Source of the DNA: Christensenellaceae bacterium
GTDB lineage: Bacteria > Bacillota > Clostridia > Christensenellales > UBA1242
NCBI GenBank assembly: GCA_031255215.1
Contig: JAIRSY010000040.1
Span: 1 to 34,205 of the forward strand
DNA: 34,205 bases
Direction: 5' to 3'
Part shown: positions 11,164 to 33,734 of the stretch, one piece after another
Numbering within the stretch: the first letter of the stretch is position 1
Layout: every line of letters starts with the position of its first letter
Notes under the pieces: generated by a model
Database searches by the model: none
Seen by the model: the letters and a program-made list of their open reading frames with translations, nothing else
What the model was told of the DNA's origin: nothing
Made by a program: the position numbers and the translations under genes

Positions 11164-11826
11164 TTATAATTCTATATACTCCGCCATCCGTTCTATCACC
11201 TTTTCCGCCGTCCATTTTGTTGTGTCTATCTCAATCGCGTCCTGTGCCTTTTTTAATGGGTCTATTTCACGCTCCTTGTCCGCTTTGTCCCGCCCCCTTA
11301 CCTGTTCAAATATCTCATTGAAACTTACGGTTTCTCCGCGTGCAAGAAGTTCCGCCTGCCTTCTTTTCGCCTTCACTTCGTCACTCGCCGTAAGAAAAAA
11401 CTTATAGTCCGCATGCGGTAATACCACCGTGCCGATATCCCGACCCTCCACAATAAAACTGCTTTGTGAAACAAGTTCCCCTATCCTGCCGTTTACATAA
11501 TTCCGCACCGTGCCCAACTTCGAAACAATTGATGCACTCTTGCTTATCAAATTATCATTTAATTTAGACGTTACATCGTATCCGTCAATTATCACCCGCA
11601 TATCATCCCTTGTTATTATTATTTGCAAGTCTATCTTGATGAGGGCCAATGCCAAGCCTTTTTCGTCGTCAAAATCAATTTTGTTTTCAATCATCCAAAA
11701 CGCTATCGCCCGATAAATTATACCCGAAGTTAAAACGGGAATCCCCAATCTCCTGGATAAACCTTTCGCCGCCGTCGTCTTCCCCGATGCCGCCCCGCCG
11801 TCAATCGCTATCTGTATATTCTTCAT
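11164..11826 (-). CDS. cmk: Cytidylate kinase
   Basis: IAIDGGAASGKTT P-loop, GIIYRA, VEGRDIGTVVLP. Confidence 0.9.
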   Translation of the reverse strand: MKNIQIAIDGGAASGKTTAAKGLSRRLGIPVLTSGIIYRAIAFWMIENKIDFDDEKGLALALIKIDLQIIITRDDMRVIIDGYDVTSKLNDNLISKSASIVSKLGTVRNYVNGRIGELVSQSSFIVEGRDIGTVVLPHADYKFFLTASDEVKAKRRQAELLARGETVSFNEIFEQVRGRDKADKEREIDPLKKAQDAIEIDTTKWTAEKVIERMAEYIEL

Positions 11827-13403
11827 ACCTCCACCCCAATATTTAATACCTTTTCCGCCGCATCCGGATTCATCATTGAAAGTCTTAACGGCGTAATCGT
11901 AATATGTCCCTTTTTCAAAAAATAAAAGTCACCCTTGTCCTCTAATACTCCCATCCCAAAAGATTCAACTTTGTTTTGAAGCCATGCAAATGTCCGCCCA
12001 AACGGATTGACCTCTAACTCATATTTATTATCCAAAAGTCCATCGGTCAAGTGAGTCCAACAAACTTGCTTCGTATCTATTTTTGACGGAAAGTTCACGT
12101 TCAAAATTCCGCCCTTTGGAATATCATTAAATAATACGCCCAAATTCTTATAAATAAATTTCGTAACCAAGGAGTAAGCCCTCTCGTTCATCTTGTCTTT
12201 AATATTTGCCGATACCGCCATCGACGGAATGTCGTGAATTGCCCCTTCAAACGCCGCGGAAACCGTGCCGCTGCTATAAATCATCTCACCTCGGTTATTT
12301 ACATAATCAATCCCCGAAATTATTAAATCCGGCTTACTCCTTAAAATTTTATTCATTGCAAGTGCAACGCAGTCACACGGCGTCCCGTCCACCGACCATA
12401 TTTTTATCCCGTTCAGCAAAAACCATTGCTTCGAACGAAGCGGCCTTTCATACGTCGTTATCGCATGTCCAACCCCACGAAAGGAATTTAACGGTGCAAC
12501 AACCGTTACCCTATACGACTTGTTTAATTCTTTCGCAAGTGCAATTATACCGGGCGTAAAACAACCCGCCTCGTTCACTAACAAAATCTTTTTTATCTTT
12601 GTTTTCCTATCGTTACCCTTATTCTTTTTAATCATATCAAGTGCATCATAATCCGTTCTATTATAACTTAACGGAGAAATGATTATTTTTTTATCGGCAA
12701 GAAGAGACACCGCCGCCGCGGTATTCTTTTCGTCTAACTTCCTCTTGTTCAAATATTTCGTCCAATAATATTTATCCCCGTTTACATCAATCTTCTCATC
12801 ATATTCGGTCAAAGATGTAAGTTCGTCCATCACGGAAATTACCTCAACCCCATTATAATCCTTGTATTTTTCCACAATAGGAAAAGAGATATTCAAAAAC
12901 GTATCCGTCGGCAGCTTTATTTTCTTAATCTTCTCTAAATTTTTCTCAATAAAATTACATGCCGGCAAAATCTCCTCCGCCGTATGTCCTCCCAATTTAA
13001 TTGGAAGAGCCACCGCAAGAGACGGAACATTAAAGAAGACCGATTCCATCGCCATTCCTATGTTACTGCTGCAAAATTTGTCCGTTCCCAAGGTAAGACC
13101 GTTGTTTATCCCGCATATCACAAGGTCCGGTCTTTTGTTTTCCATAATGCAGCCCAACATAACCGAAATCATGTCCGCCGGCGTCCCGAAAAACTTATAT
13201 GCATCAATCTCGCCGCTCTTCAATCTATACCGCATCTTATCAAACCTTATCGGCTCGCCCTGCATTGAAAAAGAATTCCCCCTTTGATGTGCGGGCGTTC
13301 CCATTCCGCAAATTGTAATTCTATGTTTCTGGTTAAGAACTTCCGCCAACACACGAAGCTCATTCGCCTCAAAACCCATGTCATTCGCAATTAAAATTTT
13401 CAT
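11823..13403 (-). CDS. Tandem SurE-SurE fusion protein (two 5'/3'-nucleotidase SurE-like domains)
   Basis: 526 aa. Domain 1 has MKILIANDMG...GTPADMISV...PDLVICGINNG. Domain 2 has KKILLVNEAG...GTPCDCVALA...PDLIISGIDYVNNRG...SGTVSAAFEG. GGGGAAG SD and a TTGATT-18-TATAAT promoter lie upstream. Confidence 0.8.
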   Translation of the reverse strand: MKILIANDMGFEANELRVLAEVLNQKHRITICGMGTPAHQRGNSFSMQGEPIRFDKMRYRLKSGEIDAYKFFGTPADMISVMLGCIMENKRPDLVICGINNGLTLGTDKFCSSNIGMAMESVFFNVPSLAVALPIKLGGHTAEEILPACNFIEKNLEKIKKIKLPTDTFLNISFPIVEKYKDYNGVEVISVMDELTSLTEYDEKIDVNGDKYYWTKYLNKRKLDEKNTAAAVSLLADKKIIISPLSYNRTDYDALDMIKKNKGNDRKTKIKKILLVNEAGCFTPGIIALAKELNKSYRVTVVAPLNSFRGVGHAITTYERPLRSKQWFLLNGIKIWSVDGTPCDCVALAMNKILRSKPDLIISGIDYVNNRGEMIYSSGTVSAAFEGAIHDIPSMAVSANIKDKMNERAYSLVTKFIYKNLGVLFNDIPKGGILNVNFPSKIDTKQVCWTHLTDGLLDNKYELEVNPFGRTFAWLQNKVESFGMGVLEDKGDFYFLKKGHITITPLRLSMMNPDAAEKVLNIGVEV

Positions 13404-26592: not shown

Positions 26593-27804
26593 ATGAAAAA
26601 TGGGTCTAAAAATTCGGTTCGCTCTATTATCTTCGCCGCCCTTTTGGCTTTGAATATTTTTAATGGCTGTCAATCGACCAACAACCTTACTTCAACCGAA
26701 CCAAAAATGAAAACCGCAAAGGAATCCATGGCGGACGGAATTACGGATTTTTTCCAAGAATACGCGGATGACAACCCAAGACAAAGAAAATTTGAAACTG
26801 ATGAAGAAATTGTCGCCGCACGCAAAGAACTTGACGTCTTTTGGCGTGAAATTGAAGATGAAGTGCAAAATACCGACTTTTTATTGGAGGATTTGACCGG
26901 CGATTTGACCGAATGGGATTTTGAAACTTCGAAAAAAGCAAGAGATGTAATTAAAAAGGTTCTTTCCGTAATTGTGAGAAAGTTTGGATATCGTCAAGAA
27001 GTTGTAGATAAAGCCCTTGACGAAACGTTCTTTTATTTTGCAAGTGTGACAAAAGGTCATTTTAGACCGCCGTATAACGGTTTCTTTGACAATGAAGAAA
27101 CAAGACCAAAAATGCGGCAGCAGACAGGGAAAAGGCAAATAATTACAATAATCTCTAACGGTAAAAAAGAAGATGGTGAATACCAGGAAGAAACCATTAC
27201 CATCATGCATGAACTTGGACATTTATTGGAAATGAATGAATCTACCGCAGATTTATTCGCGGAGGTTGTGTTCGGGACCGACAGACGTCATGCGAATGAC
27301 CCAAAATACGATTCTACCTTCGATTATATATTACTTGAACGTGTGGGACATGCTAAATTTTGGAAGGCACTTCGTGAATCCGAAGAGGCATATAAACGGC
27401 TTTGGGATGAGAATATCGGGGAAATTCAATATGATGATATGATGAATCTTCGCGGAGCAATTTATTCGCATCATAATGCCAAAGGTGATAATAATTATCT
27501 TGCGGAAGAAATTGTAAAGACGGACGCCAACGATACCGTTTCCATATTATCATTTAGAGAGGTCTTTGACCACCTTATGTTGGAAGAAGACCCACAAGTA
27601 AAAAAAACTTTGCAAAAAATACTTGACAAACAAATTCAATTCATAAGAAATCTCGACAAAAAATCTTATCAAAAGTTACAATCAAGACTTCCTGAAATTC
27701 GAAAAGCGGCGAACGCATGTGTTGGAATTTGTTGCAGAGTTTTAGACAGAATGAAAAGCCGCGAATTGAACTTACAACTTGAAAATAATGACCTACTTCG
27801 TTAA
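26593..27804 (+). CDS. Putative lipoprotein with an HExxH zinc-metallopeptidase motif
   Basis: MKNGSKNSVRSIIFAALLALNIFNG-C is a lipobox-like signal. TIMHELGHLLE contains a single HELGH. I recognise no other family. Confidence 0.55.
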   Translation: MKNGSKNSVRSIIFAALLALNIFNGCQSTNNLTSTEPKMKTAKESMADGITDFFQEYADDNPRQRKFETDEEIVAARKELDVFWREIEDEVQNTDFLLEDLTGDLTEWDFETSKKARDVIKKVLSVIVRKFGYRQEVVDKALDETFFYFASVTKGHFRPPYNGFFDNEETRPKMRQQTGKRQIITIISNGKKEDGEYQEETITIMHELGHLLEMNESTADLFAEVVFGTDRRHANDPKYDSTFDYILLERVGHAKFWKALRESEEAYKRLWDENIGEIQYDDMMNLRGAIYSHHNAKGDNNYLAEEIVKTDANDTVSILSFREVFDHLMLEEDPQVKKTLQKILDKQIQFIRNLDKKSYQKLQSRLPEIRKAANACVGICCRVLDRMKSRELNLQLENNDLLR

Positions 27805-28224
27805 ATCTTGCTCGTTTTTCAAAATGTTAACGGATGAATTAACACGCCCTTTGTTTAGTTTCTTGTTGTCCGTTTTTAGATATTTCATCATTTGCGTCAA
27901 AGATGCGTGAATCTCCTCCTCTTTCATATTCTTTTTAAGCCATTCGCTTACCCATTGATTCATTATATTCGTCCATGGAATCCCCGATGAAATCGCCAAT
28001 ACATGCCAATAAAAAAGAAGATCCCCCAAAAATTCCGCCATCTCACTCTTACGCTCATCATTATACGGATGACCGGAAAAACCTACCCCATAAGTTATAC
28101 GTGCAATGTCACCAACCGCCTTCGATAAACCTAACGAACCAAACGCAAGTGCATTGTTCAAAGGCATTTTTTCCTCTAAAAGAAAATTCTCTACTATGTT
28201 GCGTATCCTGACCTGTTCCTCCAT
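27793..28224 (-). CDS. MazG-like nucleotide pyrophosphohydrolase-domain protein
   Basis: 143 aa, all-helical. ...LSKAVGDIARI...EMAEFLGDLLFYWHVLAISSGI resembles the MazG EExxE/D helical pair. Weak call. Confidence 0.4.
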   Translation of the reverse strand: MEEQVRIRNIVENFLLEEKMPLNNALAFGSLGLSKAVGDIARITYGVGFSGHPYNDERKSEMAEFLGDLLFYWHVLAISSGIPWTNIMNQWVSEWLKKNMKEEEIHASLTQMMKYLKTDNKKLNKGRVNSSVNILKNEQDLTK

Positions 28225-28250
28225 ATCTTTTCACCTCCCTCTCTTCTTAC

Positions 28251-28994
28251 TTAATTATCTCTCTTGTCAAAATTTGTGCCAAAACAAAATTTGGCATAAA
28301 CCTCTTTGCCGGGCAACGGCGTCTTTTCCATCTTCTCCACAAACCTCTTGCGATTGAACTTTATGTTTACCTTGTAAATATCAAAGTTTGGATCGTCCCC
28401 CATCGTCTCATTTACATCAAAATAAGTATAAAATGTATGTTCACCGTGAACACAGCCGGACGAACCATTGCAAATAAACGAATCGCCCTGTTCATCAATA
28501 ATAAGTTTCCTTGCGTGTAAATGACCAAAGAAAACAACGTTGCATTTTGTATATGAAAAAAGGTTTTTAAGTTTTAACTCGCTGAATTCATCTGTTTCCT
28601 CCCTCAATGTCCCCGCCTTGTCGTGGCTGTAATGTGTAAAACAAATATCAAAACCTTTATAATGAATCTTTTGCTCTATCGGCATTAAACGTATGAAATT
28701 AAGGTCATCACGCGTCAAGGTCTTGAAAACATATTCAATATGTTCCGCATCCGCATAGGTCCTTGTCTCCGCCGATTTGTCATAACGGGAAACACGCTGC
28801 TCATGATTGCCCGCAAGACATTCCACTTTGCTTTTTTTTAACAATTTCAAACAGGCGGAAGAATCGGGACCGAACATGATTGCATCACCCAAAAAAAATG
28901 TCTTCTTAATCTTTCGGTTCCTCTTTATGTGTCTTAAAATTGCCTCCAACGCTTCAAGATTCCCGTGAATATCGCCAAAAACTGCTATTGCCAT
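28251..28994 (-). CDS. Calcineurin-like metallophosphoesterase
   Basis: Motifs in canonical order: FGDIHGN, LGDAIMFGP, GNHE, GHLH. Confidence 0.8.
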   Translation of the reverse strand: MAIAVFGDIHGNLEALEAILRHIKRNRKIKKTFFLGDAIMFGPDSSACLKLLKKSKVECLAGNHEQRVSRYDKSAETRTYADAEHIEYVFKTLTRDDLNFIRLMPIEQKIHYKGFDICFTHYSHDKAGTLREETDEFSELKLKNLFSYTKCNVVFFGHLHARKLIIDEQGDSFICNGSSGCVHGEHTFYTYFDVNETMGDDPNFDIYKVNIKFNRKRFVEKMEKTPLPGKEVYAKFCFGTNFDKRDN

Positions 28995-29063
28995 ATCATG
29001 TATTATATATTAGGTGCCAATTACAAACAAGCATTTTTTACACCGCACAAAAAAAAACGTCCG

Positions 29064-29273
29064 TCAATCCGTCAACCCCAACAAATAATCTATGCTCTCA
29101 TTCAATTCCCGTGCAATCAAAAGCAAGGTGCTTAGATCCGGCTCATGCTTACCGCTGCACCAATTCGTCACCGTTGGTTGTGTAGTTTTTAACTTTTTGG
29201 CAAATGCCAAATGACTAAATCCGTGCAAACACAAACTCTCTCGTAATCGCCGTGCAAACTTATTCTGCTCCAC
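29064..29273 (-). CDS. XRE-family HTH regulator (left arm of a divergent pair)
   Basis: 69 aa with FARRLRESLCLHGFSHLAFAKKLKTTQPTVTNWCSGKHEPDLSTLLLIARELNESIDYLLG. GTG start at 29273, with TATAAT (29284-29279) 5 nt upstream. Confidence 0.75.
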   Translation of the reverse strand: MEQNKFARRLRESLCLHGFSHLAFAKKLKTTQPTVTNWCSGKHEPDLSTLLLIARELNESIDYLLGLTD

Positions 29274-29281
29274 GCCTTATT

Positions 29282-29300
29282 ATATAAGAAACACTTATAT
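29282..29300. promoter_or_regulatory. Operator O1: ATATAAG-N5-CTTATAT palindrome
   Basis: Perfect 7-bp inverted arms separated by 5 nt. Overlaps the -10 of the leftward promoter. Confidence 0.65.
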
Positions 29301-29305
29301 TTTTC

Positions 29306-29334
29306 TTGACACATAAGAGATGCTTATGTATAAT
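29306..29334 (+). promoter_or_regulatory. Consensus sigma-70 promoter of the rightward XRE gene (leaderless-type)
   Basis: TTGACA (29306-29311), 17-nt spacer, TATAAT (29329-29334), then 6 nt before the ATG at 29341. Confidence 0.7.
29312..29328. promoter_or_regulatory. Operator O2: CATAAG-N5-CTTATG palindrome filling the promoter spacer
   Basis: Perfect 6-bp arms (7 bp if A29311/T29329 are included), sharing the ATAAG/CTTAT half-site with O1. The centres are 29 bp apart. Confidence 0.65.
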
Positions 29335-29340
29335 ACAATA

Positions 29341-29583
29341 ATGCAAAACACATTTATTAAAAATCTAAAAAGAACAATGGCGGAGAATGAAATCAATCAA
29401 ACGGGTCTTACCGAAATGTTAGGAATGGCACAAAGCCGGGTTTCCAATTGGCTGAACGGAAAATCTGTCCCTACAATAACATCATTGGTACGGCTATGCA
29501 AAAAACTAAAAATTGATTCAAAGATTTATTTCGTTAAAAAAATGAAAGTTGTTTGGCGGATTTTATTTCGTTTTGAGAAATGA
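29341..29583 (+). CDS. XRE-family HTH regulator (right arm of the divergent pair)
   Basis: MQNTFIKNLKRTMAENEINQTGLTEMLGMAQSRVSNWLNGKSVPTITSLVRLCKKLKI. The ORF-track ATG at 29320 lies inside the promoter spacer, so I use 29341. The last 50 nt overlap the convergent SLOG-like gene. Confidence 0.75.
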   Translation: MQNTFIKNLKRTMAENEINQTGLTEMLGMAQSRVSNWLNGKSVPTITSLVRLCKKLKIDSKIYFVKKMKVVWRILFRFEK

Positions 29584-29998
29584 ATTTTCTTTCGTTGTTC
29601 AAAAAGATTATGACGTCCTTATTTTTATCAATAAGATTTGTTATATTGTTCATCGTGCCTTTACTTTGTCCATTCCAAATCATAAATCCAAGGTCACAAT
29701 CAAATGCAAGGGCGATGTCCTTTACCGCATGAAGGTTCCGCCCATGTTTGCCGCCGGTCAAGCCCGTTATTTTATTTACATTCCAATTGCCGATATTACT
29801 TCGAACCGAGAGGTCACTGCTATAAACAACGACATTTCTATATCCTTTTTCAAATAGATATTTTTGAACCGCCGAATCCGCACCGCCGGCATCACCTATC
29901 AAAATTGTGTCCCCATTTTCAATATAACTTTCAAGTTTTTCCTCAACCATTTCGTCAAGGGAATTTATTTTGATAGACCCTCCTATAAAAACTTTCAT
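29534..29998 (-). CDS. Small SLOG-like (Smf/DprA-LOG-YpsA superfamily) Rossmann-type protein
   Basis: 154 aa with MKVFIGGS..., LIGDAGGADSAVQKYL, VVVYSS and MIWNGQSKGTMNNI, the paired glycine-rich loops typical of SLOG proteins. Its start overlaps the stop of the upstream gene (ATGA). Confidence 0.5.
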   Translation of the reverse strand: MKVFIGGSIKINSLDEMVEEKLESYIENGDTILIGDAGGADSAVQKYLFEKGYRNVVVYSSDLSVRSNIGNWNVNKITGLTGGKHGRNLHAVKDIALAFDCDLGFMIWNGQSKGTMNNITNLIDKNKDVIIFLNNERKFISQNEIKSAKQLSFF

Positions 29999-30573
29999 CT
30001 CAACACCGTCCCTTTATTGCGTTTTCGAGTCAAGGCCAAAACATAAATTTCCCCGACCTTATCATCACTTTTCAAAACTTCACAAGTTTTCAAAAGCGAT
30101 GTTCCGGTGTTGTATAAATCGTCAACCAAAAGGACATTGGACACACGTTCAAATCTTATGTTGATTTCAATCACAAGGTCATAAGCACCGTTTTTTGCAC
30201 TCTTTTCACTTAAATTTATTAAACAATTATCTACATACGGAACTTTTAATCTATTCGCAATATATTTTGTAATTACCGCAAGCGGTTGGACAATCCTTGG
30301 TGTTGAAGGCGGAAGATTTATCACAAAATCAATTTTTTTACCAGAAAGCCACTCCAACAAAAAATCTTGGGTCAATTCCCAAATTTCCTTTGATGTATCA
30401 AGATGTTTATTATATTTGAAGTCATAAAGCAATCCGCCCAACTCCGTATAAATTGTATCAAATGAACCTCCGACCGCCGACGATGAAACCGTATGTTCAT
30501 CTAACACATATCCATCCTGCCAATTCCCAAAGATTTTAATCGGTGATATCCTCATCAAAGACAAGATTAACAC
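29995..30573 (-). CDS. ComF-type phosphoribosyltransferase-domain protein lacking the zinc ribbon
   Basis: PRPP loop NVLLVDDLYNTGTSL near the C-terminus, IDFVINLPPS and QPLAVITKYIA as in ComF-family proteins, and no N-terminal CxxC pairs. The start is uncertain: GTG 30573, TTG 30564 (preceded by AAGGTG) or ATG 30555. Confidence 0.65.
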   Translation of the reverse strand: MLILSLMRISPIKIFGNWQDGYVLDEHTVSSSAVGGSFDTIYTELGGLLYDFKYNKHLDTSKEIWELTQDFLLEWLSGKKIDFVINLPPSTPRIVQPLAVITKYIANRLKVPYVDNCLINLSEKSAKNGAYDLVIEINIRFERVSNVLLVDDLYNTGTSLLKTCEVLKSDDKVGEIYVLALTRKRNKGTVLR

Positions 30574-30576
30574 CTT

Positions 30577-32316
30577 TTATAAAATTTTAATATCATATTT
30601 TTTAAGCCAATAATTGATTTGAAGAAAATATGCAATTGTTTGCGGACGTGCCATAAGCTGCCCATACCAAAATTCGTCCCTAAATTGCTTTAATGAAACC
30701 AAATCTATGATTTTATGAATCGGTTCATCCCTATTGTCAATGACATCCTGCATTTCATCTTCAAGCATTTTCAAGTAATCAGGGTTAAAAGTTTTTGGAT
30801 ACGGCGACTTCTTGCGTCCCTTAATCTCTTTCGGTAAAATATCCGCAAAGGCATCGCGAAGAACACTCTTCTCAATTCCTCCTCGGTATTTATATTCAAA
30901 CGGTAAATTGTAACATAATTCAACAAGGCGGTAATCGGCAAACGGAACGCGGACCTCCAACCCATTATACATACTCATTCTATCTTTTCGGTCAAGTAAA
31001 GTCTGCATAAAATAATCCATATTAAGTTTCATCATTTGCCTATGATTAAGTTTGACATTTTTCTTTACACCGCTTACAAGTGCCTTTTTATATTTGTTTT
31101 TCAAAAATGAAAGACGATATTCTTGATTGTCCGCCCAAGGGAAACCGCCGTGCATTGCCGATTCATAAAACCACCGGTATCCGCCAAAGATTTCATCTGC
31201 ACATTCCCCGGACAACGCAACCGTTACCTTTTTCTTTATATCCTTACAAAAAATCAAAAGTGATGCATCAATATCCGCCATTCCCGGCAACCCCCTTGCA
31301 TCAACGGCAAGTTTTAGACTTTGAAACAATTGATTTGTCGTTATAACGGTCTTATTGTTCTTTGTCTTCATTTGTTCAATATAATAATCATCCGGTGCAC
31401 TTTGAAATTTTGTTTTTTGAAAGTATTTATCGTTATCCTGATAAAAAACCGAAAATGTTTCTAAATTGTCTTTCGGCGATGATGACAATCTTTCCCGTCT
31501 TGCAATTGCGGTTATAATACTGCTGTCAATGCCTCCGCTTAAAAAGGTTCCAATGGGCACATCACTTACTAATTGCCTCATTATCGCGTCCTCCGCTAAA
31601 TTCCGCACCTCAAGAACACTCTCCTCATAACTCTTTGTATATTCCCTTTCTTTTAACTTCCAATAAGTCTTCCTCTTGACTTTTATCTTTCCGTCTTCAA
31701 CTTTGACTTTCATAAACTGGGCGGGTTTTAATTCATTTATATTTTTCAAAGGCGTTTTCCCCGAATCGCGTCCCGGCCCCATCAAAATAAATTGACGGAC
31801 GCCGCGTTTATCCAACATCCTCGGCACATTTGAATTGGCAAGCAGAGTTGGAATTTCACTCCCAAAAACGAATTGTCCTTTTAATGGATTGCAGTAAAAG
31901 AATAAAGGCTTTACCCCGATTCTGTCTCTCGCTAAAAACAATTGATTGGTATTTATATCAAGAACCGCAAAAGCAAAGATGCCGTTAAGTTTTTGCAGTG
32001 CATTTTCCTTCCACTCCGCATATGCGTGAATTAAAACCTCGGTATCACCGGTTCCAAAAAACCGATGCCCCAACGCCAACAATTCCCGTTTAATTTCCCT
32101 TGTATTATAAAGTTCACCATTATAAATCAAAATGTAATTTTGAAAACGCATGGGCTGCCGCCCTTTTTCAATATCAACAACCGCAAGTCTTGTATGAAGA
32201 AGTGTCCAATCACCTTCAAAAATCCCGTTTTGGTCGGGGCCCCGCCGTTTCAAAGTTTCCTGCATTTCAATCGCAATGTTTTTATTCCTGCCAAAAAATC
32301 CCGCTATTCCACACAT
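30577..32316 (-). CDS. Asparagine synthase (glutamine-hydrolysing)-family amidotransferase
   Basis: 579 aa. MCGIAG N-terminus (Cys2 nucleophile), PP-loop FLSGGIDSS, and LSGECADEIFGGY. Confidence 0.85.
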   Translation of the reverse strand: MCGIAGFFGRNKNIAIEMQETLKRRGPDQNGIFEGDWTLLHTRLAVVDIEKGRQPMRFQNYILIYNGELYNTREIKRELLALGHRFFGTGDTEVLIHAYAEWKENALQKLNGIFAFAVLDINTNQLFLARDRIGVKPLFFYCNPLKGQFVFGSEIPTLLANSNVPRMLDKRGVRQFILMGPGRDSGKTPLKNINELKPAQFMKVKVEDGKIKVKRKTYWKLKEREYTKSYEESVLEVRNLAEDAIMRQLVSDVPIGTFLSGGIDSSIITAIARRERLSSSPKDNLETFSVFYQDNDKYFQKTKFQSAPDDYYIEQMKTKNNKTVITTNQLFQSLKLAVDARGLPGMADIDASLLIFCKDIKKKVTVALSGECADEIFGGYRWFYESAMHGGFPWADNQEYRLSFLKNKYKKALVSGVKKNVKLNHRQMMKLNMDYFMQTLLDRKDRMSMYNGLEVRVPFADYRLVELCYNLPFEYKYRGGIEKSVLRDAFADILPKEIKGRKKSPYPKTFNPDYLKMLEDEMQDVIDNRDEPIHKIIDLVSLKQFRDEFWYGQLMARPQTIAYFLQINYWLKKYDIKIL

Positions 32317-32321
32317 ATTTC

Positions 32322-32350
32322 ATTATATTGAAATCATTTCCATTTGTTAC
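32322..32350 (-). promoter_or_regulatory. Promoter abutting the start codon of the AsnB-like gene (leaderless-type)
   Basis: On the minus strand: GTAACA (32350-32345), 17-nt spacer, TATAAT (32327-32322), then 5 nt before the ATG at 32316. No SD. The start is fixed by the obligatory Met-Cys N-terminus. Confidence 0.55.
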
Positions 32351-32413: not shown

Positions 32414-33124
32414 TTATTTAATTTCAACCGGTTTGTGTTTAAGTTTATCCGTGGACGATAAATAATATTGTATGCCGTTCTTTTCGCAAGATAATGCGTT
32501 GCCGAAATTGCCGTGCAAATGTCCATAAACGACCGCGGAAACTTTGAAAGTCTCACAAAGTCTTGTAAAGTCACTGTCATCTCTATTACTATTGAATGGG
32601 GGATAATGCAAAATTACAACAACCTTTGGATTTTTAATGTTTTCCGCGTAACTCTTTCTTACCGAATCTTCAAGTGCCAACTGCAAACGCACAACCTCCC
32701 GGTTATAAATCTTCTTGTCCTCATCGGTCTGGGTCTCCCTGCGTTCCGGAGTATGCCAACCTCTTGTTCCAACAAAGACATAATTGCCGAAAACAATGCT
32801 GTCATTTTGAAGTGCGAAAATATCCGGTGCAACAAATTCTCTTATTTGAGCAATACTTTTCCACCAATAATCATGGTTCCCCCTTATGATTATTTTCTTA
32901 CCATTTAACCGATGTATAAATTCAAAATCTTTCTTGGTCTTCTCCATCTTCATCGCCCACGAAATATCACCGGCAATAATCCCTATATCATCTTTCCCAA
33001 CAATAAAGTTCCAATTCTTTTCAATTTCTTTCTCATAGTCCTTCCATCCATCACCAAAAATATCCATAGGCTTTCCCTCTACTTCAAAAGATAAATGAAA
33101 GTCAGATAAAGCGAAAATCTTCAC
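32414..33124 (-). CDS. Calcineurin-like metallophosphoesterase (second one)
   Basis: FALSDFHL, IAGDIS, RGNHDYWW, YGHLHG. I place the start at the GTG at 33124, 6 nt after a GGGAGG SD. The longer ORF-track version overlaps rluA-like coding sequence. Confidence 0.8.
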   Translation of the reverse strand: MKIFALSDFHLSFEVEGKPMDIFGDGWKDYEKEIEKNWNFIVGKDDIGIIAGDISWAMKMEKTKKDFEFIHRLNGKKIIIRGNHDYWWKSIAQIREFVAPDIFALQNDSIVFGNYVFVGTRGWHTPERRETQTDEDKKIYNREVVRLQLALEDSVRKSYAENIKNPKVVVILHYPPFNSNRDDSDFTRLCETFKVSAVVYGHLHGNFGNALSCEKNGIQYYLSSTDKLKHKPVEIK

Positions 33125-33734
33125 GAAATACCTCCCAAATTCCATCCTCCGGATATACCACAAACGATAACTTCTCCTTTGTTGTAGGATGACAGAACGA
33201 AAGTTTATAACTCCAAAGAGCAATGTTACCCTTACTTGCACGCGGGTTATATCTTATGTCGCCAAAAAGAGGACAGCCAATATTTTTAAGTTGAACCCGA
33301 ATTTGATGGCTTCTGCCCGTCTCTAATTCCACCATTAAAAACGATAAATTCTTAACCGTTTTAACAACTTCATACCTCAACTCGGCATAAATCGCCCCCT
33401 CGGTCGCCTGCGGAACAACGGATACAACATTTCTTTTCTCATCTTTTATCAAATAGTTTTTAAGCGTTTGTCCCCGCTCCCTCGGGACACCCTCAACAAC
33501 ACAAAGGTATTTTTTTTCAACCTCCCTCTTCCTTATCTGCTCGCTTAACCTCTCCGCCGCCTTCCTGCTCTTTGCAAATACCATAACTCCGCCCGTAACA
33601 GCGTCCAGCCGGTGGACAGACTTTACAACCGTCCCCGTCTCCCCTAATCGCCGCATCACCTCTTCATATTCAATATTTTGAGGCTTTATAATGACGACGA
33701 TATGATTGTCCTCATGAATAATAGGTATTTCCAT
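33102..33734 (-). CDS. RluA-family pseudouridine synthase (no S4 domain)
   Basis: IIHEDNHIVVIIKP, catalytic HRLDAVTGGVMVFAKS, and RSHQIRVQL. Confidence 0.85.
   Translation of the reverse strand: MEIPIIHEDNHIVVIIKPQNIEYEEVMRRLGETGTVVKSVHRLDAVTGGVMVFAKSRKAAERLSEQIRKREVEKKYLCVVEGVPRERGQTLKNYLIKDEKRNVVSVVPQATEGAIYAELRYEVVKTVKNLSFLMVELETGRSHQIRVQLKNIGCPLFGDIRYNPRASKGNIALWSYKLSFCHPTTKEKLSFVVYPEDGIWEVFREDFRFI

What the first reader, a model, noticed from the sequence alone, without database searches (positions are those of the whole stretch)
29064..32350. XRE switch plus tightly coupled AsnB-like / ComF-type PRTase / SLOG-like operon: candidate undescribed nucleotide-centred cassette
Seen in the sequence: three minus-strand ORFs form one compact unit. 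There is a 3-nt gap between the AsnB-like stop (30577) and the next ORF (30573), and an ATGA stop/start overlap at 29995-29998. ORF1 (579 aa) starts MCGIAG, so Cys2 is the Ntn-glutaminase nucleophile, and it carries the PP-loop SGGIDSS. ORF2 (192 aa) has the PRPP loop VLLVDDLYNTGTS and a ComF-like layout but no zinc ribbon. ORF3 (154 aa) has LIGDAGGADSAVQ and WNGQSKGT, the paired Gly-rich loops I associate with the SLOG (Smf/DprA-LOG-YpsA) superfamily. The operon has its own promoter directly on the start codon. Its 3' end is overlapped for 50 nt by a convergent XRE gene that belongs to a cI/Cro-like divergent pair. Established knowledge: SLOG domains bind or cleave nucleotides (LOG hydrolases, DprA, the signal-sensing domain of Thoeris ThsA). 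ComF-type PRTases act in competence and have been reported as retron-associated effectors. AsnB-type enzymes adenylate a carboxylate and amidate it with glutamine-derived ammonia. Inference: the trio could build, amidate and release or sense a ribonucleotide-type molecule under phage-repressor-like control, as a defence or signalling module. I know of no described system with this composition. The dull alternative is a housekeeping asparagine synthetase sharing an operon with two unrelated small genes.
Basis: partly seen in the sequence, partly recalled or inferred. Interest (0 to 1): 0.75.

Follow-up and report, generated by a model that had tools for sequence, protein, structure and literature searches.

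The report
Minimal PRTase–SLOG toxin–antidote gene pair
The supposed three-gene "nucleotide cassette" is an ordinary asparagine-synthase-family gene with a widespread, mobile two-gene module inserted just behind it: a ComF-like phosphoribosyltransferase plus a small DprA-like SLOG protein, distantly related to the known ShosTA and PsyrTA toxin–antitoxin phage-defence pairs.

Summary
The domain calls hold up. ORF1 is a glutamine-hydrolysing AsnB-family amidotransferase. ORF2 is a ComF-like PRTase without a zinc ribbon. ORF3 has a SLOG fold whose best structural matches are DprA, ShosA and YpsA.

The three genes are not one system. In 138 related loci, an ORF2 homolog sits directly upstream of an ORF3 homolog in most genomes. 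The pair also occurs on plasmids and prophages, co-evolves (Mantel r 0.90), and exists as a single fused protein. An AsnB gene is nearby in only one locus, on the opposite strand. XRE genes are not conserved neighbours.

Neighbours of the pair are heterogeneous and include integrases, R-M genes and other TA systems. Family members hit the PADLOC PsyrT/ShosT models (56/56) and the ShosA model (11/37). The SLOG partner is sometimes fused to an "addiction-module antidote" HTH. PRTase genes are found decayed beside intact SLOG genes.

The best reading is a minimal, experimentally uncharacterised variant of the PRTase-toxin / DprA-like-antidote class. Here it has landed behind asnB and is probably co-transcribed with it by accident of insertion. 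Interest is moderate: a new variant of a known kind.

The parts
29995..30573 (-). ORF2: ComF-like type I phosphoribosyltransferase. Likely start is TTG 30564, giving 189 aa. Proposed toxin/effector of the two-gene module.
   Evidence: PRPP loop VLLVDDLYNTGTS. The window copy keeps all family-invariant residues. All 56 scanned members of alignment A3, including the window's ORF2 (PsyrT 1.9e-6, ShosT 8e-4), hit PADLOC PsyrT (best 5e-24) and ShosT (best 2e-13). AF2 model pLDDT 90.6. Best fold hit ComF 7p0h, with ShosT 8zvb also hit.
29534..29998 (-). ORF3: small SLOG-fold (DprA/YpsA-like) protein of 154 aa. Proposed antidote/regulator of ORF2. It lacks the ~25-aa C-terminal tail that most homologs carry.
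   Evidence: AF2 pLDDT 89.8. Foldseek hits DprA, ShosA 8zva, YpsA, TRPM-SLOG and LOG. 23/37 family members weakly hit Pfam DprA and 11/37 hit PADLOC ShosA. Conserved motifs GDAxGxDxxVQ and MIWNGxSKGT.
30571..30576 (-). AAGGTG Shine-Dalgarno for ORF2, directly abutting the asnB stop codon (30577-30579). It leaves no room for a separate promoter.
   Evidence: Sequence. No promoter-like site on the minus strand between 30600 and 31378.
30577..32316 (-). ORF1: glutamine-hydrolysing AsnB-family amidotransferase (Ntn Cys2 and PP-loop SGGIDSS). It is a bystander gene that probably supplies the transcript on which ORF2-ORF3 ride.
   Evidence: TIGR01536 441 bits, plus GATase_7 and Asn_synthase. Best solved relative is the hydroxyamidotransferase 7ylz (3e-83), ahead of E. 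coli AsnB 1ct9 (7e-37). Not co-conserved with the pair.
32322..32350 (-). Promoter-like GTAACA-17-TATAAT ending 5 nt before the asnB ATG, with no Shine-Dalgarno (candidate leaderless mRNA).
   Evidence: This is a pattern match only.
29341..29583 (+). XRE-B: Cro/cI-type HTH gene, convergent with ORF3 and overlapping its last 50 nt. The probable start is ATG 29341 (80 aa), not 29320.
   Evidence: HTH_3 E 3e-8. A perfect sigma-70 promoter at 29306-29334 places the transcription start at about 29341.
29064..29273 (-). XRE-A: Cro/cI-type HTH gene, divergent from XRE-B and co-directional with the downstream metallophosphoesterase gene.
   Evidence: HTH_3 E 5e-11. 25% identical to XRE-B.
29282..29329 (.). 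Two operator-like palindromes, ATATAAG-N5-CTTATAT (29282-29300) and ACATAAG-N5-CTTATGT (29311-29329). The second overlaps the XRE-B promoter.
   Evidence: inverted repeats I3 and I4; direct repeat D1 with 29-nt spacing.

Best explanation
Three unrelated things lie side by side. (1) asnB is a chromosomal AsnB-family amidotransferase in a housekeeping neighbourhood. (2) ORF2-ORF3 is a self-contained, horizontally mobile two-gene module: a ComF-like PRTase and a small DprA/YpsA-like SLOG protein. It is a minimal, remote relative of the ShosTA and PsyrTA/RqlHI class of type IV toxin-antitoxin / abortive-infection systems. (3) A divergent XRE pair with its own operators is not part of the module. 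Proposed mechanism, by inference from ShosTA and RqlHI: the PRTase binds PRPP and phosphoribosylates an unknown acceptor (a purine-pathway metabolite or a base in nucleic acid), which is toxic or genotoxic. The SLOG protein neutralises this without necessarily binding the toxin. It could do so by handling ssDNA and recombination as ShosA does, or by binding or hydrolysing the phosphoribosylated product. Loss or titration of the SLOG partner, for example during phage infection or loss of the element, would release the toxicity. In this window the pair has no regulatory region of its own. Its ribosome-binding site abuts the asnB stop codon, so it is most likely transcribed by read-through from the asnB promoter, an accident of where it inserted. 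Shown: the domain identities, the pair's conservation and co-evolution, its mobility and defence-island contexts, and the non-conservation of AsnB and XRE. Inferred: toxicity, antidote action and a defence role.
For: Pair conservation: an ORF2 relative lies immediately upstream (gap -4 to +21 nt) of the ORF3 relative in about 58 of 80 genome loci spanning Clostridia, Bacilli, Acidobacteriota, delta- and alpha-proteobacterial MAGs, Dehalococcoidia and Spirochaetes. The pair also occurs on plasmids of Agrobacterium, Listeria and Acinetobacter, annotated 'ComF family protein' plus 'hypothetical' or 'addiction module antidote protein'. It is in 8 viral contigs and an SPbeta-like prophage. Co-evolution: Mantel r 0.90, with 0 of 2000 permutations reaching it. 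Rosetta-stone fusion: P0171 is the ORF2 family (hhalign 99.9%, E 1e-34) followed by the ORF3 SLOG domain. Relation to known systems: 56/56 scanned ORF2-family members (alignment A3) hit PADLOC PsyrT and ShosT, and 11/37 ORF3-family members hit ShosA. ShosA 8zva and ShosT 8zvb appear among the fold hits. Antidote role of the SLOG partner: it is fused to the PF21716 antidote HTH (E 1.6e-21 in L093; also P0216). PRTase genes are decayed next to intact SLOG genes in L027, L040, L046, L052, L053 and L085 and in A. vitis plasmids. Conflict context: neighbours include HEPN/MNT, RES, AbiEii, Fic, Hachiman-like HamA plus helicase, type III R-M, integrases and relaxases, with no recurrent third gene (96 Pfam families among 85 neighbours). 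The SLOG domain is also fused to Abi_alpha, HEPN_AbiU2, NADAR and DUF4326. AsnB and XRE are not conserved partners. Published mechanism of the class: PMC11961720, PMC12961424 and PMC4670107.
Against: Nothing here tests toxicity, neutralisation or phage defence. Similarity to ShosT and ShosA is remote. The window's ORF3 hits no PADLOC model, and its ORF2 hits ShosT only at E 8e-4. The architecture differs from ShosTA: there is no PPase or RecQ domain on the PRTase and no SAM domain on the SLOG protein. A natural PRTase-SLOG fusion is awkward for a classical labile-antitoxin model. The window's ORF3 lacks the C-terminal tail that most homologs have, and in ShosA that tail confers instability. 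The best structural matches, ComF and DprA, are both competence proteins, so a DNA-handling role is not excluded. The very tight asnB-ORF2 junction means the three genes are co-expressed in this organism, whatever the evolutionary history.
Confidence: 0.6

Rival explanations
1. One reading: AsnB, PRTase and SLOG form one biosynthetic or signalling pathway. The PRTase builds a ribonucleotide-type molecule, AsnB amidates it with glutamine-derived ammonia, and SLOG releases or senses it, all under XRE control.
For: The three genes are translationally or transcriptionally coupled in this window, with gaps of 3-12 nt and an ATGA overlap. ORF1 is closer to a non-asparagine AsnB-family enzyme (hydroxyamidotransferase 7ylz) than to E. 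coli AsnB, so its acceptor is not certain. A class II glutaminase plus a PRTase is the logic of PurF, and the ORF2 profile's best PDB sequence hit is the PurF PRTase domain. One other locus (L086) has an AsnB homolog 1.2 kb from a pair.
Against: AsnB is absent within about 6 kb of the pair in 79 of 80 genome loci and in all 58 plasmid, viral and metagenome loci. The one exception is on the opposite strand and is compatible with chance. The nearest AsnB relatives (49% identity) lack the pair. The pair usually has its own 200-1000 nt upstream region. XRE genes are not conserved neighbours. The window is housekeeping chromosome.
Confidence: 0.06
2. The pair is not a toxin-antitoxin. It is a mobile-element ssDNA-handling module: a stripped-down ComFC plus DprA that helps incoming plasmid or phage ssDNA to be protected, recombined or established, possibly evading restriction.
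For: The best structural matches are the two competence proteins ComF (7p0h) and DprA (4ljk, 3uqz). 38 of 63 plasmids carrying ORF2 homologs are conjugative, so their DNA enters as ssDNA. One pair sits inside a type III R-M operon. ShosA itself acts through ssDNA and RecA (PMC12961424).
Against: ORF2 lacks the ComF zinc finger, and ORF3 lacks the accessory domains of DprA. The SLOG partner is fused to an antitoxin-type HTH and, in other proteins, to Abi effectors. PRTase genes decay while SLOG genes persist. Neighbourhoods are defence or TA islands rather than transfer operons.
Confidence: 0.15
3. It is a signal-and-sensor module of the Thoeris type. The PRTase makes a phosphoribosyl-derived second messenger on infection, and the SLOG protein is the sensor that binds it and then acts on a host target or an unlinked effector.
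For: SLOG domains sense nucleotide signals in ThsA (literature listed). The ORF3-type SLOG domain is fused to the effector domains Abi_alpha and HEPN_AbiU2, as a sensor domain would be. Its two Gly-rich loops are strongly conserved, as in ligand-binding SLOG proteins.
Against: The conserved module has only two genes and no recognisable effector. In the characterised relatives the PRTase is itself the toxic component (PMC11961720, PMC4670107). The SLOG-antidote HTH fusion and the decay of PRTase genes fit an antidote better than a sensor.
Confidence: 0.1

Closest known systems
ShosTA (E. coli; type IV toxin-antitoxin / abortive-infection defence system)
   Same: It is a two-gene module with a PRTase-domain protein followed by a DprA-like SLOG protein, and it lives in defence islands and prophages. 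ORF2-family members hit the PADLOC ShosT model (56/56, best 2e-13) and ORF3-family members hit ShosA (11/37, best 2e-4). ShosA 8zva and ShosT 8zvb are among the fold hits.
   Different: ShosT has more than 424 aa, with an N-terminal pyrophosphatase-like domain and an APRT-like PRTase. ShosA has more than 313 aa, with an N-terminal SAM domain (PMC11961720). ORF2 (189 aa) is ComF/PurF-like and has only a small beta-rich N-terminal region. ORF3 (154 aa) is a bare SLOG domain. The window proteins fall below any usable PADLOC threshold.
PsyrTA / RqlHI (RecQ-like helicase-PRTase toxin with a DprA-like antitoxin)
   Same: The PRTase of ORF2 is most similar to the C-terminal PRTase of PsyrT (window ORF2 2e-6; family best 5e-24). 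The partner contains a DprA-like region. In RqlH the PRPP pocket is required for genotoxicity (PMC4670107).
   Different: ORF2 has no helicase domain. [quoted passage not shown]
YpsA-family SLOG / PRTase gene pair noted computationally (Burroughs et al. 2015, as summarised in Brzozowski et al. 2019, PMC6459960)
   Same: [quoted passage not shown] ORF3 carries a GxD motif (G39-x-D41) like the YpsA GxD/E signature, and YpsA 2nx2 is a fold hit.
   Different: I could not read the primary paper because it is not held. No ORF3-family member hit the Pfam YpsA model even at E 10, whereas 23/37 hit DprA. Identity with that branch is therefore unproven.
ComFC and DprA of natural transformation
   Same: They are the best structural matches of ORF2 (ComF 7p0h, TM 0.65) and ORF3 (DprA 4ljk and 3uqz, TM about 0.65). 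Sources name ORF2 homologs 'ComF family protein'.
   Different: ORF2 has no zinc finger and ORF3 has no DprA accessory domains. The genes form a mobile pair in defence, plasmid and prophage contexts rather than sitting in competence regulons.
DarTG / NADAR-type enzymatic toxin-antidote pairs (analogy only)
   Same: They are a possible mechanistic parallel, in which a transferase modifies a base and a partner hydrolase removes the adduct. The ORF3-type SLOG domain is found fused to NADAR, DUF4326 and DUF488 domains.
   Different: There is no sequence relationship, and no hydrolase activity has been shown for this SLOG family. The LOG catalytic Glu position appears to be Asn by my manual alignment of the motifs, which I did not test.

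Membership tests
SLOG (Smf/DprA-LOG) superfamily - ORF3 | Rossmannoid SLOG fold similar to DprA, LOG, YpsA and the TRPM N-terminal domains | tested here: met
   The AF2 model has pLDDT 89.8. Foldseek top hits are DprA (4ljk, 3uqz), ShosA (8zva) and YpsA (2nx2), followed by the TRPM SLOG domain and LOG (5wq3, 5zbj); E is 6e-4 to 3e-3 for the first three and 8e-3 to 9e-2 for the TRPM and LOG hits, and TM-score (query) for the DprA, ShosA, YpsA and LOG hits is 0.57-0.66 (TRPM 0.47-0.52).
SLOG (Smf/DprA-LOG) superfamily - ORF3 | Two conserved Gly-rich loops after core strands | tested here: met
   GDAxGxDxxVQ and MIWNGxSKGT are invariant or nearly invariant across 37 homologs.
SLOG (Smf/DprA-LOG) superfamily - ORF3 | Significant match to a curated SLOG-clan sequence model | tested here: inconclusive
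   The window ORF3 has no Pfam, NCBIfam or PADLOC hit. Among family members, 23/37 hit Pfam DprA only weakly (best 1.8e-4, below gathering) and 3 hit YAcAr.
Type I PRTase / ComF family - ORF2 | PRPP-binding loop (hydrophobic run, two acidic residues, then xxTGxT) | tested here: met
   VLLVDDLYNTGTS is present. D148, D149 and G154 are invariant in 38 and 56 homologs.
Type I PRTase / ComF family - ORF2 | ComF-like fold and motifs (VPxPxS...R..QP, Q.KN) | tested here: met
   The best fold hit is H. pylori ComF 7p0h (E 2e-6, TM 0.65). The motifs are conserved. Sources name homologs 'ComF family protein'.
Type I PRTase / ComF family - ORF2 | N-terminal four-Cys zinc finger of ComFC | tested here: not met
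   There is no cysteine in the first 80 residues. The model shows three short beta strands there instead. TIGR00201 comF scores 17.9 bits against a cut-off of 233.
ShosTA | Adjacent co-oriented genes for a PRTase-domain protein and a DprA-like protein | tested here: met
ShosTA | Both proteins match the ShosT and ShosA models at system-calling stringency | tested here: not met
   The window ORF2 hits ShosT at E 8e-4 (17 bits, partial coverage). The window ORF3 has no ShosA hit.
ShosTA | ShosT N-terminal pyrophosphatase-like domain and ShosA N-terminal SAM domain | tested here: not met
   ORF2 (189 aa) and ORF3 (154 aa) are single-domain proteins, unlike the architecture in PMC11961720.
ShosTA | PRTase toxic in a PRPP-dependent way; DprA-like partner neutralises it; phage defence | not testable with these tools
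   This requires expression, rescue and plaque assays.
PsyrTA / RqlHI | Toxin with an N-terminal RecQ-like helicase fused to a C-terminal PRTase | tested here: not met
   ORF2 aligns only to positions 538-686 of the 689-position PsyrT model. There is no helicase domain.
Asparagine synthase (glutamine-hydrolysing), TIGR01536 - ORF1 | N-terminal Cys nucleophile, class II GATase domain, PP-loop synthetase domain, and a score above the curated cut-off | tested here: met
   MCGIAG, GATase_7 (1.5e-40), Asn_synthase (4e-73), SGGIDSS, and TIGR01536 at 441 bits against a cut-off of 267.
Asparagine synthase (glutamine-hydrolysing), TIGR01536 - ORF1 | The acceptor is aspartate, so the enzyme truly makes asparagine | not testable with these tools
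   The best solved relative is a hydroxyamidotransferase (7ylz, 3e-83), ahead of E. coli AsnB (7e-37). From my own knowledge, family members also amidate peptidoglycan and other carboxylates. The rest of the genome is not available to check other routes to Asn.
   1 of 80 genome loci, on the opposite strand, and 0 of 58 further loci. AsnB relatives lack the pair.

The most novel reading that the evidence does not exclude
The minimal ComF-like PRTase / bare-SLOG pair may be an enzymatic toxin-antidote system of the DarTG type. The PRTase would phosphoribosylate a base, in DNA, RNA or a nucleotide pool, and the SLOG protein would remove or sequester that adduct. The many solo ORF3-like genes in phage genomes (43 of 51 viral loci) would then be anti-defence antidotes that phages carry to disarm this toxin. 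A weaker add-on is that in this organism the capture of the pair behind asnB ties toxin and antidote dosage to asnB transcription.
Probability: 0.15. Interest if true: 0.7.

Novelty: new variant of a known kind. Interest (0 to 1): 0.4.

Why it matters
PRTase toxins paired with DprA-like antidotes (ShosTA, PsyrTA) are a recently characterised and mechanistically unsettled class of defence systems. The acceptor of the PRTase is still unknown. This window holds a member of a much smaller, two-domain version of that theme. The version is widespread: at least 986 clusters (90% identity) of the PRTase and about 3,300 clusters (50% identity) of the SLOG protein. It occurs in Firmicutes, Proteobacteria, Acidobacteriota and other phyla, on conjugative plasmids including 21 Klebsiella plasmids, and in prophages. 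The window's own copy falls below usable PADLOC (v2.0.0) thresholds. Because each protein is a single domain, the pair would be a clean model for finding what the PRTase modifies and how a SLOG domain counteracts it. For genome annotation, 'ComF family protein' followed by a ~175-aa hypothetical protein should not be read as a competence gene. An asnB gene next to the pair is coincidental.

Tried and rejected
1. Sequence searches of the ORF3 profile against PDB chains gave nothing meaningful. Only the fold search was informative.
2. Looking up the exact AsnB protein in the assembly index gave no record. The metagenome scan with AsnB returned only two relatives at 49% identity, so I could not reconstruct an 'empty site' (asnB without the insert) in a close relative.
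3. The primary SLOG paper (Burroughs et al. 2015, PMC4678834) is not held. I therefore could not settle whether it describes exactly this family.
4. A home-made iterative HTH profile was too insensitive, finding 2 hits in 2,307 ORFs, and I discarded it. I replaced it with a Pfam census of small flanking ORFs.
5. ORF2 has no tblastn hit in GenBank phage genomes, and ORF3 has only three weak hits. Phage carriage is supported only by IMG/VR contigs and one SPbeta-like contig.
6. Rfam found no RNA family in the window, so asnB has no T-box or riboswitch leader.
7. Terminator-like sites at 30842-30860 and 30366-30383 lie inside coding regions and are no more frequent than in shuffles. I did not take them as real.
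8. GC3 of asnB (0.38), ORF2 (0.35), ORF3 (0.36) and XRE-B (0.32) is lower than that of the core genes (0.45-0.48). The whole right third of the window is also lower in GC, so I did not use this to delimit an island.
9. I considered a PurF-like partnership between the AsnB glutaminase and the PRTase and rejected it on the co-occurrence data.

Full report
OBSERVATION. Every sequence feature in the finding is present.
- One search lists minus-strand ORFs at 30577-32316 (579 aa, MCGIAG..., FLSGGIDSS), 29995-30573 (192 aa, VLLVDDLYNTGTS) and 29534-29998 (154 aa, LIGDAGGADSAVQ and WNGQSKGT).
- The asnB stop (TAA 30579-30577) is 3 nt from the GTG at 30573, and ORF2 and ORF3 overlap in ATGA.
- Reading the junction, AAGGTG (30576-30571) is a Shine-Dalgarno placed 6 nt before the TTG at 30564. 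Homolog alignments begin around there, so ORF2 probably starts at 30564 (189 aa). Either way there is no room for a promoter between asnB and ORF2.
- The convergent XRE ORF ends at 29583, giving the stated 50-nt overlap with ORF3.
- A GTAACA-17-TATAAT match ends 5 nt before the asnB ATG, and there is no Shine-Dalgarno. This fits a leaderless start but is only a pattern match, since promoter-like matches are not enriched over shuffles (16 found against 15.1 expected).

WHAT THE PROTEINS ARE.
- ORF1 is an AsnB-family, glutamine-hydrolysing amidotransferase. It scores 441 bits on TIGR01536 (cut-off 267) and hits GATase_7 and Asn_synthase. Its best solved relative is a hydroxyamidotransferase (7ylz, E 3e-83, full length), ahead of E. 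coli AsnB (1ct9, 7e-37). The family is certain, but the acceptor is not.
- ORF2 hits Pfam Pribosyltran just below threshold, and weakly hits the PRTase parts of PADLOC PsyrT (2e-6) and ShosT (8e-4). Its family is large, with at least 986 clusters at E <= 1e-5, and sources name members 'ComF family protein'. All 56 scanned members of alignment A3 (the window's ORF2 and 55 homologs) hit PsyrT (best 5e-24) and ShosT (best 2e-13). The AlphaFold model (pLDDT 90.6) is closest to H. pylori ComF (7p0h, E 2e-6, TM 0.65), and ShosT (8zvb) is also among the hits. ORF2 has no cysteines for a zinc ribbon. The window copy keeps all family-invariant residues, including the PRPP-loop D148, D149 and G154.
- ORF3 has no hit in Pfam, NCBIfam or PADLOC. 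Its model (pLDDT 89.8) matches DprA (4ljk, 3uqz), ShosA (8zva), YpsA (2nx2), the SLOG domains of TRPM channels and LOG. Across its homologs, 23/37 weakly hit Pfam DprA and 11/37 hit PADLOC ShosA.

WHAT BELONGS TOGETHER. I collected 80 genome loci with the ORF3 family profile, plus metagenome, plasmid and viral loci.
- An ORF2 relative lies immediately upstream of the ORF3 relative, with a gap of -4 to +21 nt, in about 58 of the 80 genome loci. These span Clostridia, Bacilli (many Anoxybacillus), Acidobacteriota, delta- and alpha-proteobacterial MAGs, Dehalococcoidia and Spirochaetes.
- The same pair is annotated 'ComF family protein' plus 'hypothetical' or 'addiction module antidote protein' on plasmids of Agrobacterium, Listeria innocua (pLI100) and Acinetobacter. 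ORF2 homologs occur on 63 plasmids, of which 21 are Klebsiella and 38 are conjugative.
- The pair lies inside the structural module of an SPbeta-like prophage and in 8 IMG/VR contigs.
- Pairwise distances of the two proteins are strongly correlated. Mantel r is 0.90, with 0 of 2000 permutations reaching it, and r is 0.77 among distant pairs.
- One protein, P0171, is a head-to-tail fusion of the two families. hhalign gives probability 99.9% and E 1e-34 for the ORF2 half, and the SLOG domain occupies residues 210-379.
- By contrast, an AsnB relative lies within about 6 kb in only 1 of 80 genome loci. That locus is L086, where the gene is on the opposite strand and 1.2 kb away. None of the 58 other loci has one.
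- The only retrievable AsnB relatives (49% identity) have no ORF2 or ORF3 beside them.
- XRE genes are not conserved neighbours either. No relatives of the window's XRE genes lie near pairs. Only 1 of 104 small ORFs within 350 nt of 42 pairs has an HTH_3 domain.
- The larger neighbours are highly heterogeneous, with 96 Pfam families among 85 genes and none in more than 4. They mix integrases, serine recombinases, MobL relaxases, R-M genes and PD-(D/E)XK nucleases with housekeeping genes such as MreB, SecA and MetRS.
- The pair usually has 200-1000 nt of intergenic DNA upstream, which would hold its own promoter. In the window it has none.
- The window itself is core chromosome of a spore-forming Firmicute, with SpoVAD, trigger factor, RecN, XseA, Cmk, TilS, SecE/NusG, Gmk, AckA and UppP.
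- The conserved unit is therefore the two-gene pair. asnB and the XRE genes are neighbours by accident of insertion.

HOW IT PROBABLY WORKS. Two characterised systems share the same domain logic.
- In ShosTA, ShosT is toxic through its PRPP-binding PRTase domain and disturbs purine metabolism and replication. The DprA-like ShosA neutralises it without binding it, through ssDNA and RecA, and is intrinsically unstable (PMC11961720, PMC12961424).
- In RqlHI (PsyrTA), the PRTase domain of a RecQ-like helicase is genotoxic unless the DprA-like RqlI is present (PMC4670107).
- Several observations here fit a toxin-antidote relationship with the PRTase as toxin:
  - The SLOG protein is fused to the PF21716 'addiction module antidote' HTH in Agrobacterium plasmids (E 1.6e-21) and in P0216. 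This is the usual way an antitoxin gains autoregulation.
  - PRTase genes are fragmented or reduced to remnants beside intact SLOG genes in L027, L040, L046, L052, L053 and L085 and in A. vitis plasmids.
  - SLOG homologs without a PRTase sit next to other toxins or defence genes, including RES, AbiEii, Fic, type IIG and type III methylases and Bro-N.
  - Contexts of the pair include HEPN/MNT pairs, a Hachiman-like HamA plus helicase, NOV_C, Fic and an nSTAND NTPase.
- Other fusions of the ORF3-type SLOG domain are to NADAR, DUF4326, DUF488-N3a, Abi_alpha and HEPN_AbiU2. These show that the domain works in nucleotide and ADP-ribose-centred conflict systems. They leave open whether it acts as an enzyme, a ligand sensor or a DNA binder.
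- My best explanation, by inference: ORF2 uses PRPP to phosphoribosylate an unknown acceptor, which is toxic. ORF3 counteracts this. The pair acts as an addiction or abortive-infection module. Nothing here tests toxicity or defence.

THE XRE PAIR. The two HTH genes are divergent and 25% identical.
- XRE-B has a perfect TTGACA-17-TATAAT promoter (29306-29334). Its -10 box ends 6 nt before the ATG at 29341, so the gene is probably 80 aa and leaderless rather than starting at 29320.
- Two 19-bp palindromes, ATATAAG-N5-CTTATAT and ACATAAG-N5-CTTATGT, lie between the genes. The second overlaps that promoter. This is a normal repressor-operator layout.
- XRE-A is co-directional with the metallophosphoesterase and the 143-aa ORF downstream and may head that operon.
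- Transcription from the strong XRE-B promoter would run antisense into ORF3, because no terminator-like site precedes 30367 on the + strand. Whether that matters is unknown.

COMPARISON AND NOVELTY.
- The pair works like ShosTA and PsyrTA but fails their membership tests. ORF2 has no PPase or RecQ domain, ORF3 has no SAM domain, and the window proteins are below model thresholds.
- A 'YpsA-family SLOG coupled in a gene pair with a PRTase' has been noted computationally (PMC6459960, citing Burroughs et al. 2015). I could not read the primary paper, and the family's weak sequence hits go to DprA rather than YpsA. I therefore cannot say whether it is the same family.
- I found no experimental work on this minimal family in four literature searches, plus the papers I read.
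- I rate it a new variant of a known kind. It is of moderate interest as a compact model for the unresolved PRTase-toxin mechanism, and as an annotation caveat, since 'ComF family protein' here is not a competence gene.

Noticed in passing
window 32316-32350 (-), 29306-29343 (+), 29273-29290 (-): Three genes (asnB, XRE-B, XRE-A) each have a TATAAT box ending 5-6 nt before the start codon and no Shine-Dalgarno. This suggests leaderless mRNAs, which may be common in this organism. The XRE-B promoter is a perfect 12/12 consensus.
   Followed up: partly
window 32414-33241 (-): The metallophosphoesterase gene just upstream of asnB hits the PADLOC candidate single-gene defence family PDC-S10 (E 4e-11). 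Its annotated GTG start overlaps the 3' end of the RluA-like gene, so the true start is probably further in.
   Followed up: no
window 27793-29273 (-): XRE-A, an ApaH/PrpE-like metallophosphoesterase (28251-28994) and a 143-aa ORF with no family hit (27793-28224) are co-directional with short gaps. They may form a separate XRE-headed operon.
   Followed up: no
L096-L146 (IMG/VR viral contigs); also L089, L008, L010, L013, L025, L032: 43 of 51 viral loci carry an ORF3-like SLOG gene without any PRTase. Short (~154 aa) solo homologs sit in tightly packed small-gene operons. These could be phage or mobile-element antidotes against host PRTase toxins, but that is speculation.
   Followed up: partly
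L027, L040, L046, L052, L053, L085; A. vitis plasmids H39 and H40: PRTase genes are fragmented or reduced to remnants next to intact SLOG genes. This pattern is typical of toxin decay with antitoxin retention. The loci were retrieved through ORF3, so I could not test for the reverse pattern.
   Followed up: partly
L016 3445-9643: A PRTase-SLOG pair is nested between a type III R-M methylase (N6_N4_Mtase) and its Res subunit (ResIII plus endonuclease domain), with gaps of 20 and -53 nt.
   Followed up: no
L062 6001-6870: The ORF3 homolog reads through in frame into a PurS (FGAM synthase subunit) domain, giving 289 aa with PurS at residues 198-274 (E 2.5e-31). This is either a real SLOG-PurS fusion or an assembly or annotation artefact. 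It is curious given that ShosT perturbs purine metabolism.
   Followed up: no
window 30577-32316 (-): ORF1's best solved relative is a hydroxyamidotransferase (7ylz, E 3e-83, full length), ahead of E. coli AsnB (7e-37, two stretches). Its closest database relatives are only 49% identical and about 36 aa longer. Its acceptor substrate should not be assumed to be aspartate.
   Followed up: partly
window 11823-13403 (-): The SurE-family protein is 526 aa with two matched SurE stretches. This is about twice the usual length, so it may be a tandem or fused SurE.
   Followed up: no
window 29534-29583: The window's ORF3 lacks the ~25-aa C-terminal tail present in most paired homologs (median length 179 aa). 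Its 3' end is overlapped by XRE-B. In ShosA the C-terminal tail mediates instability (PMC11961720), so this copy might be a more stable antidote.
   Followed up: partly
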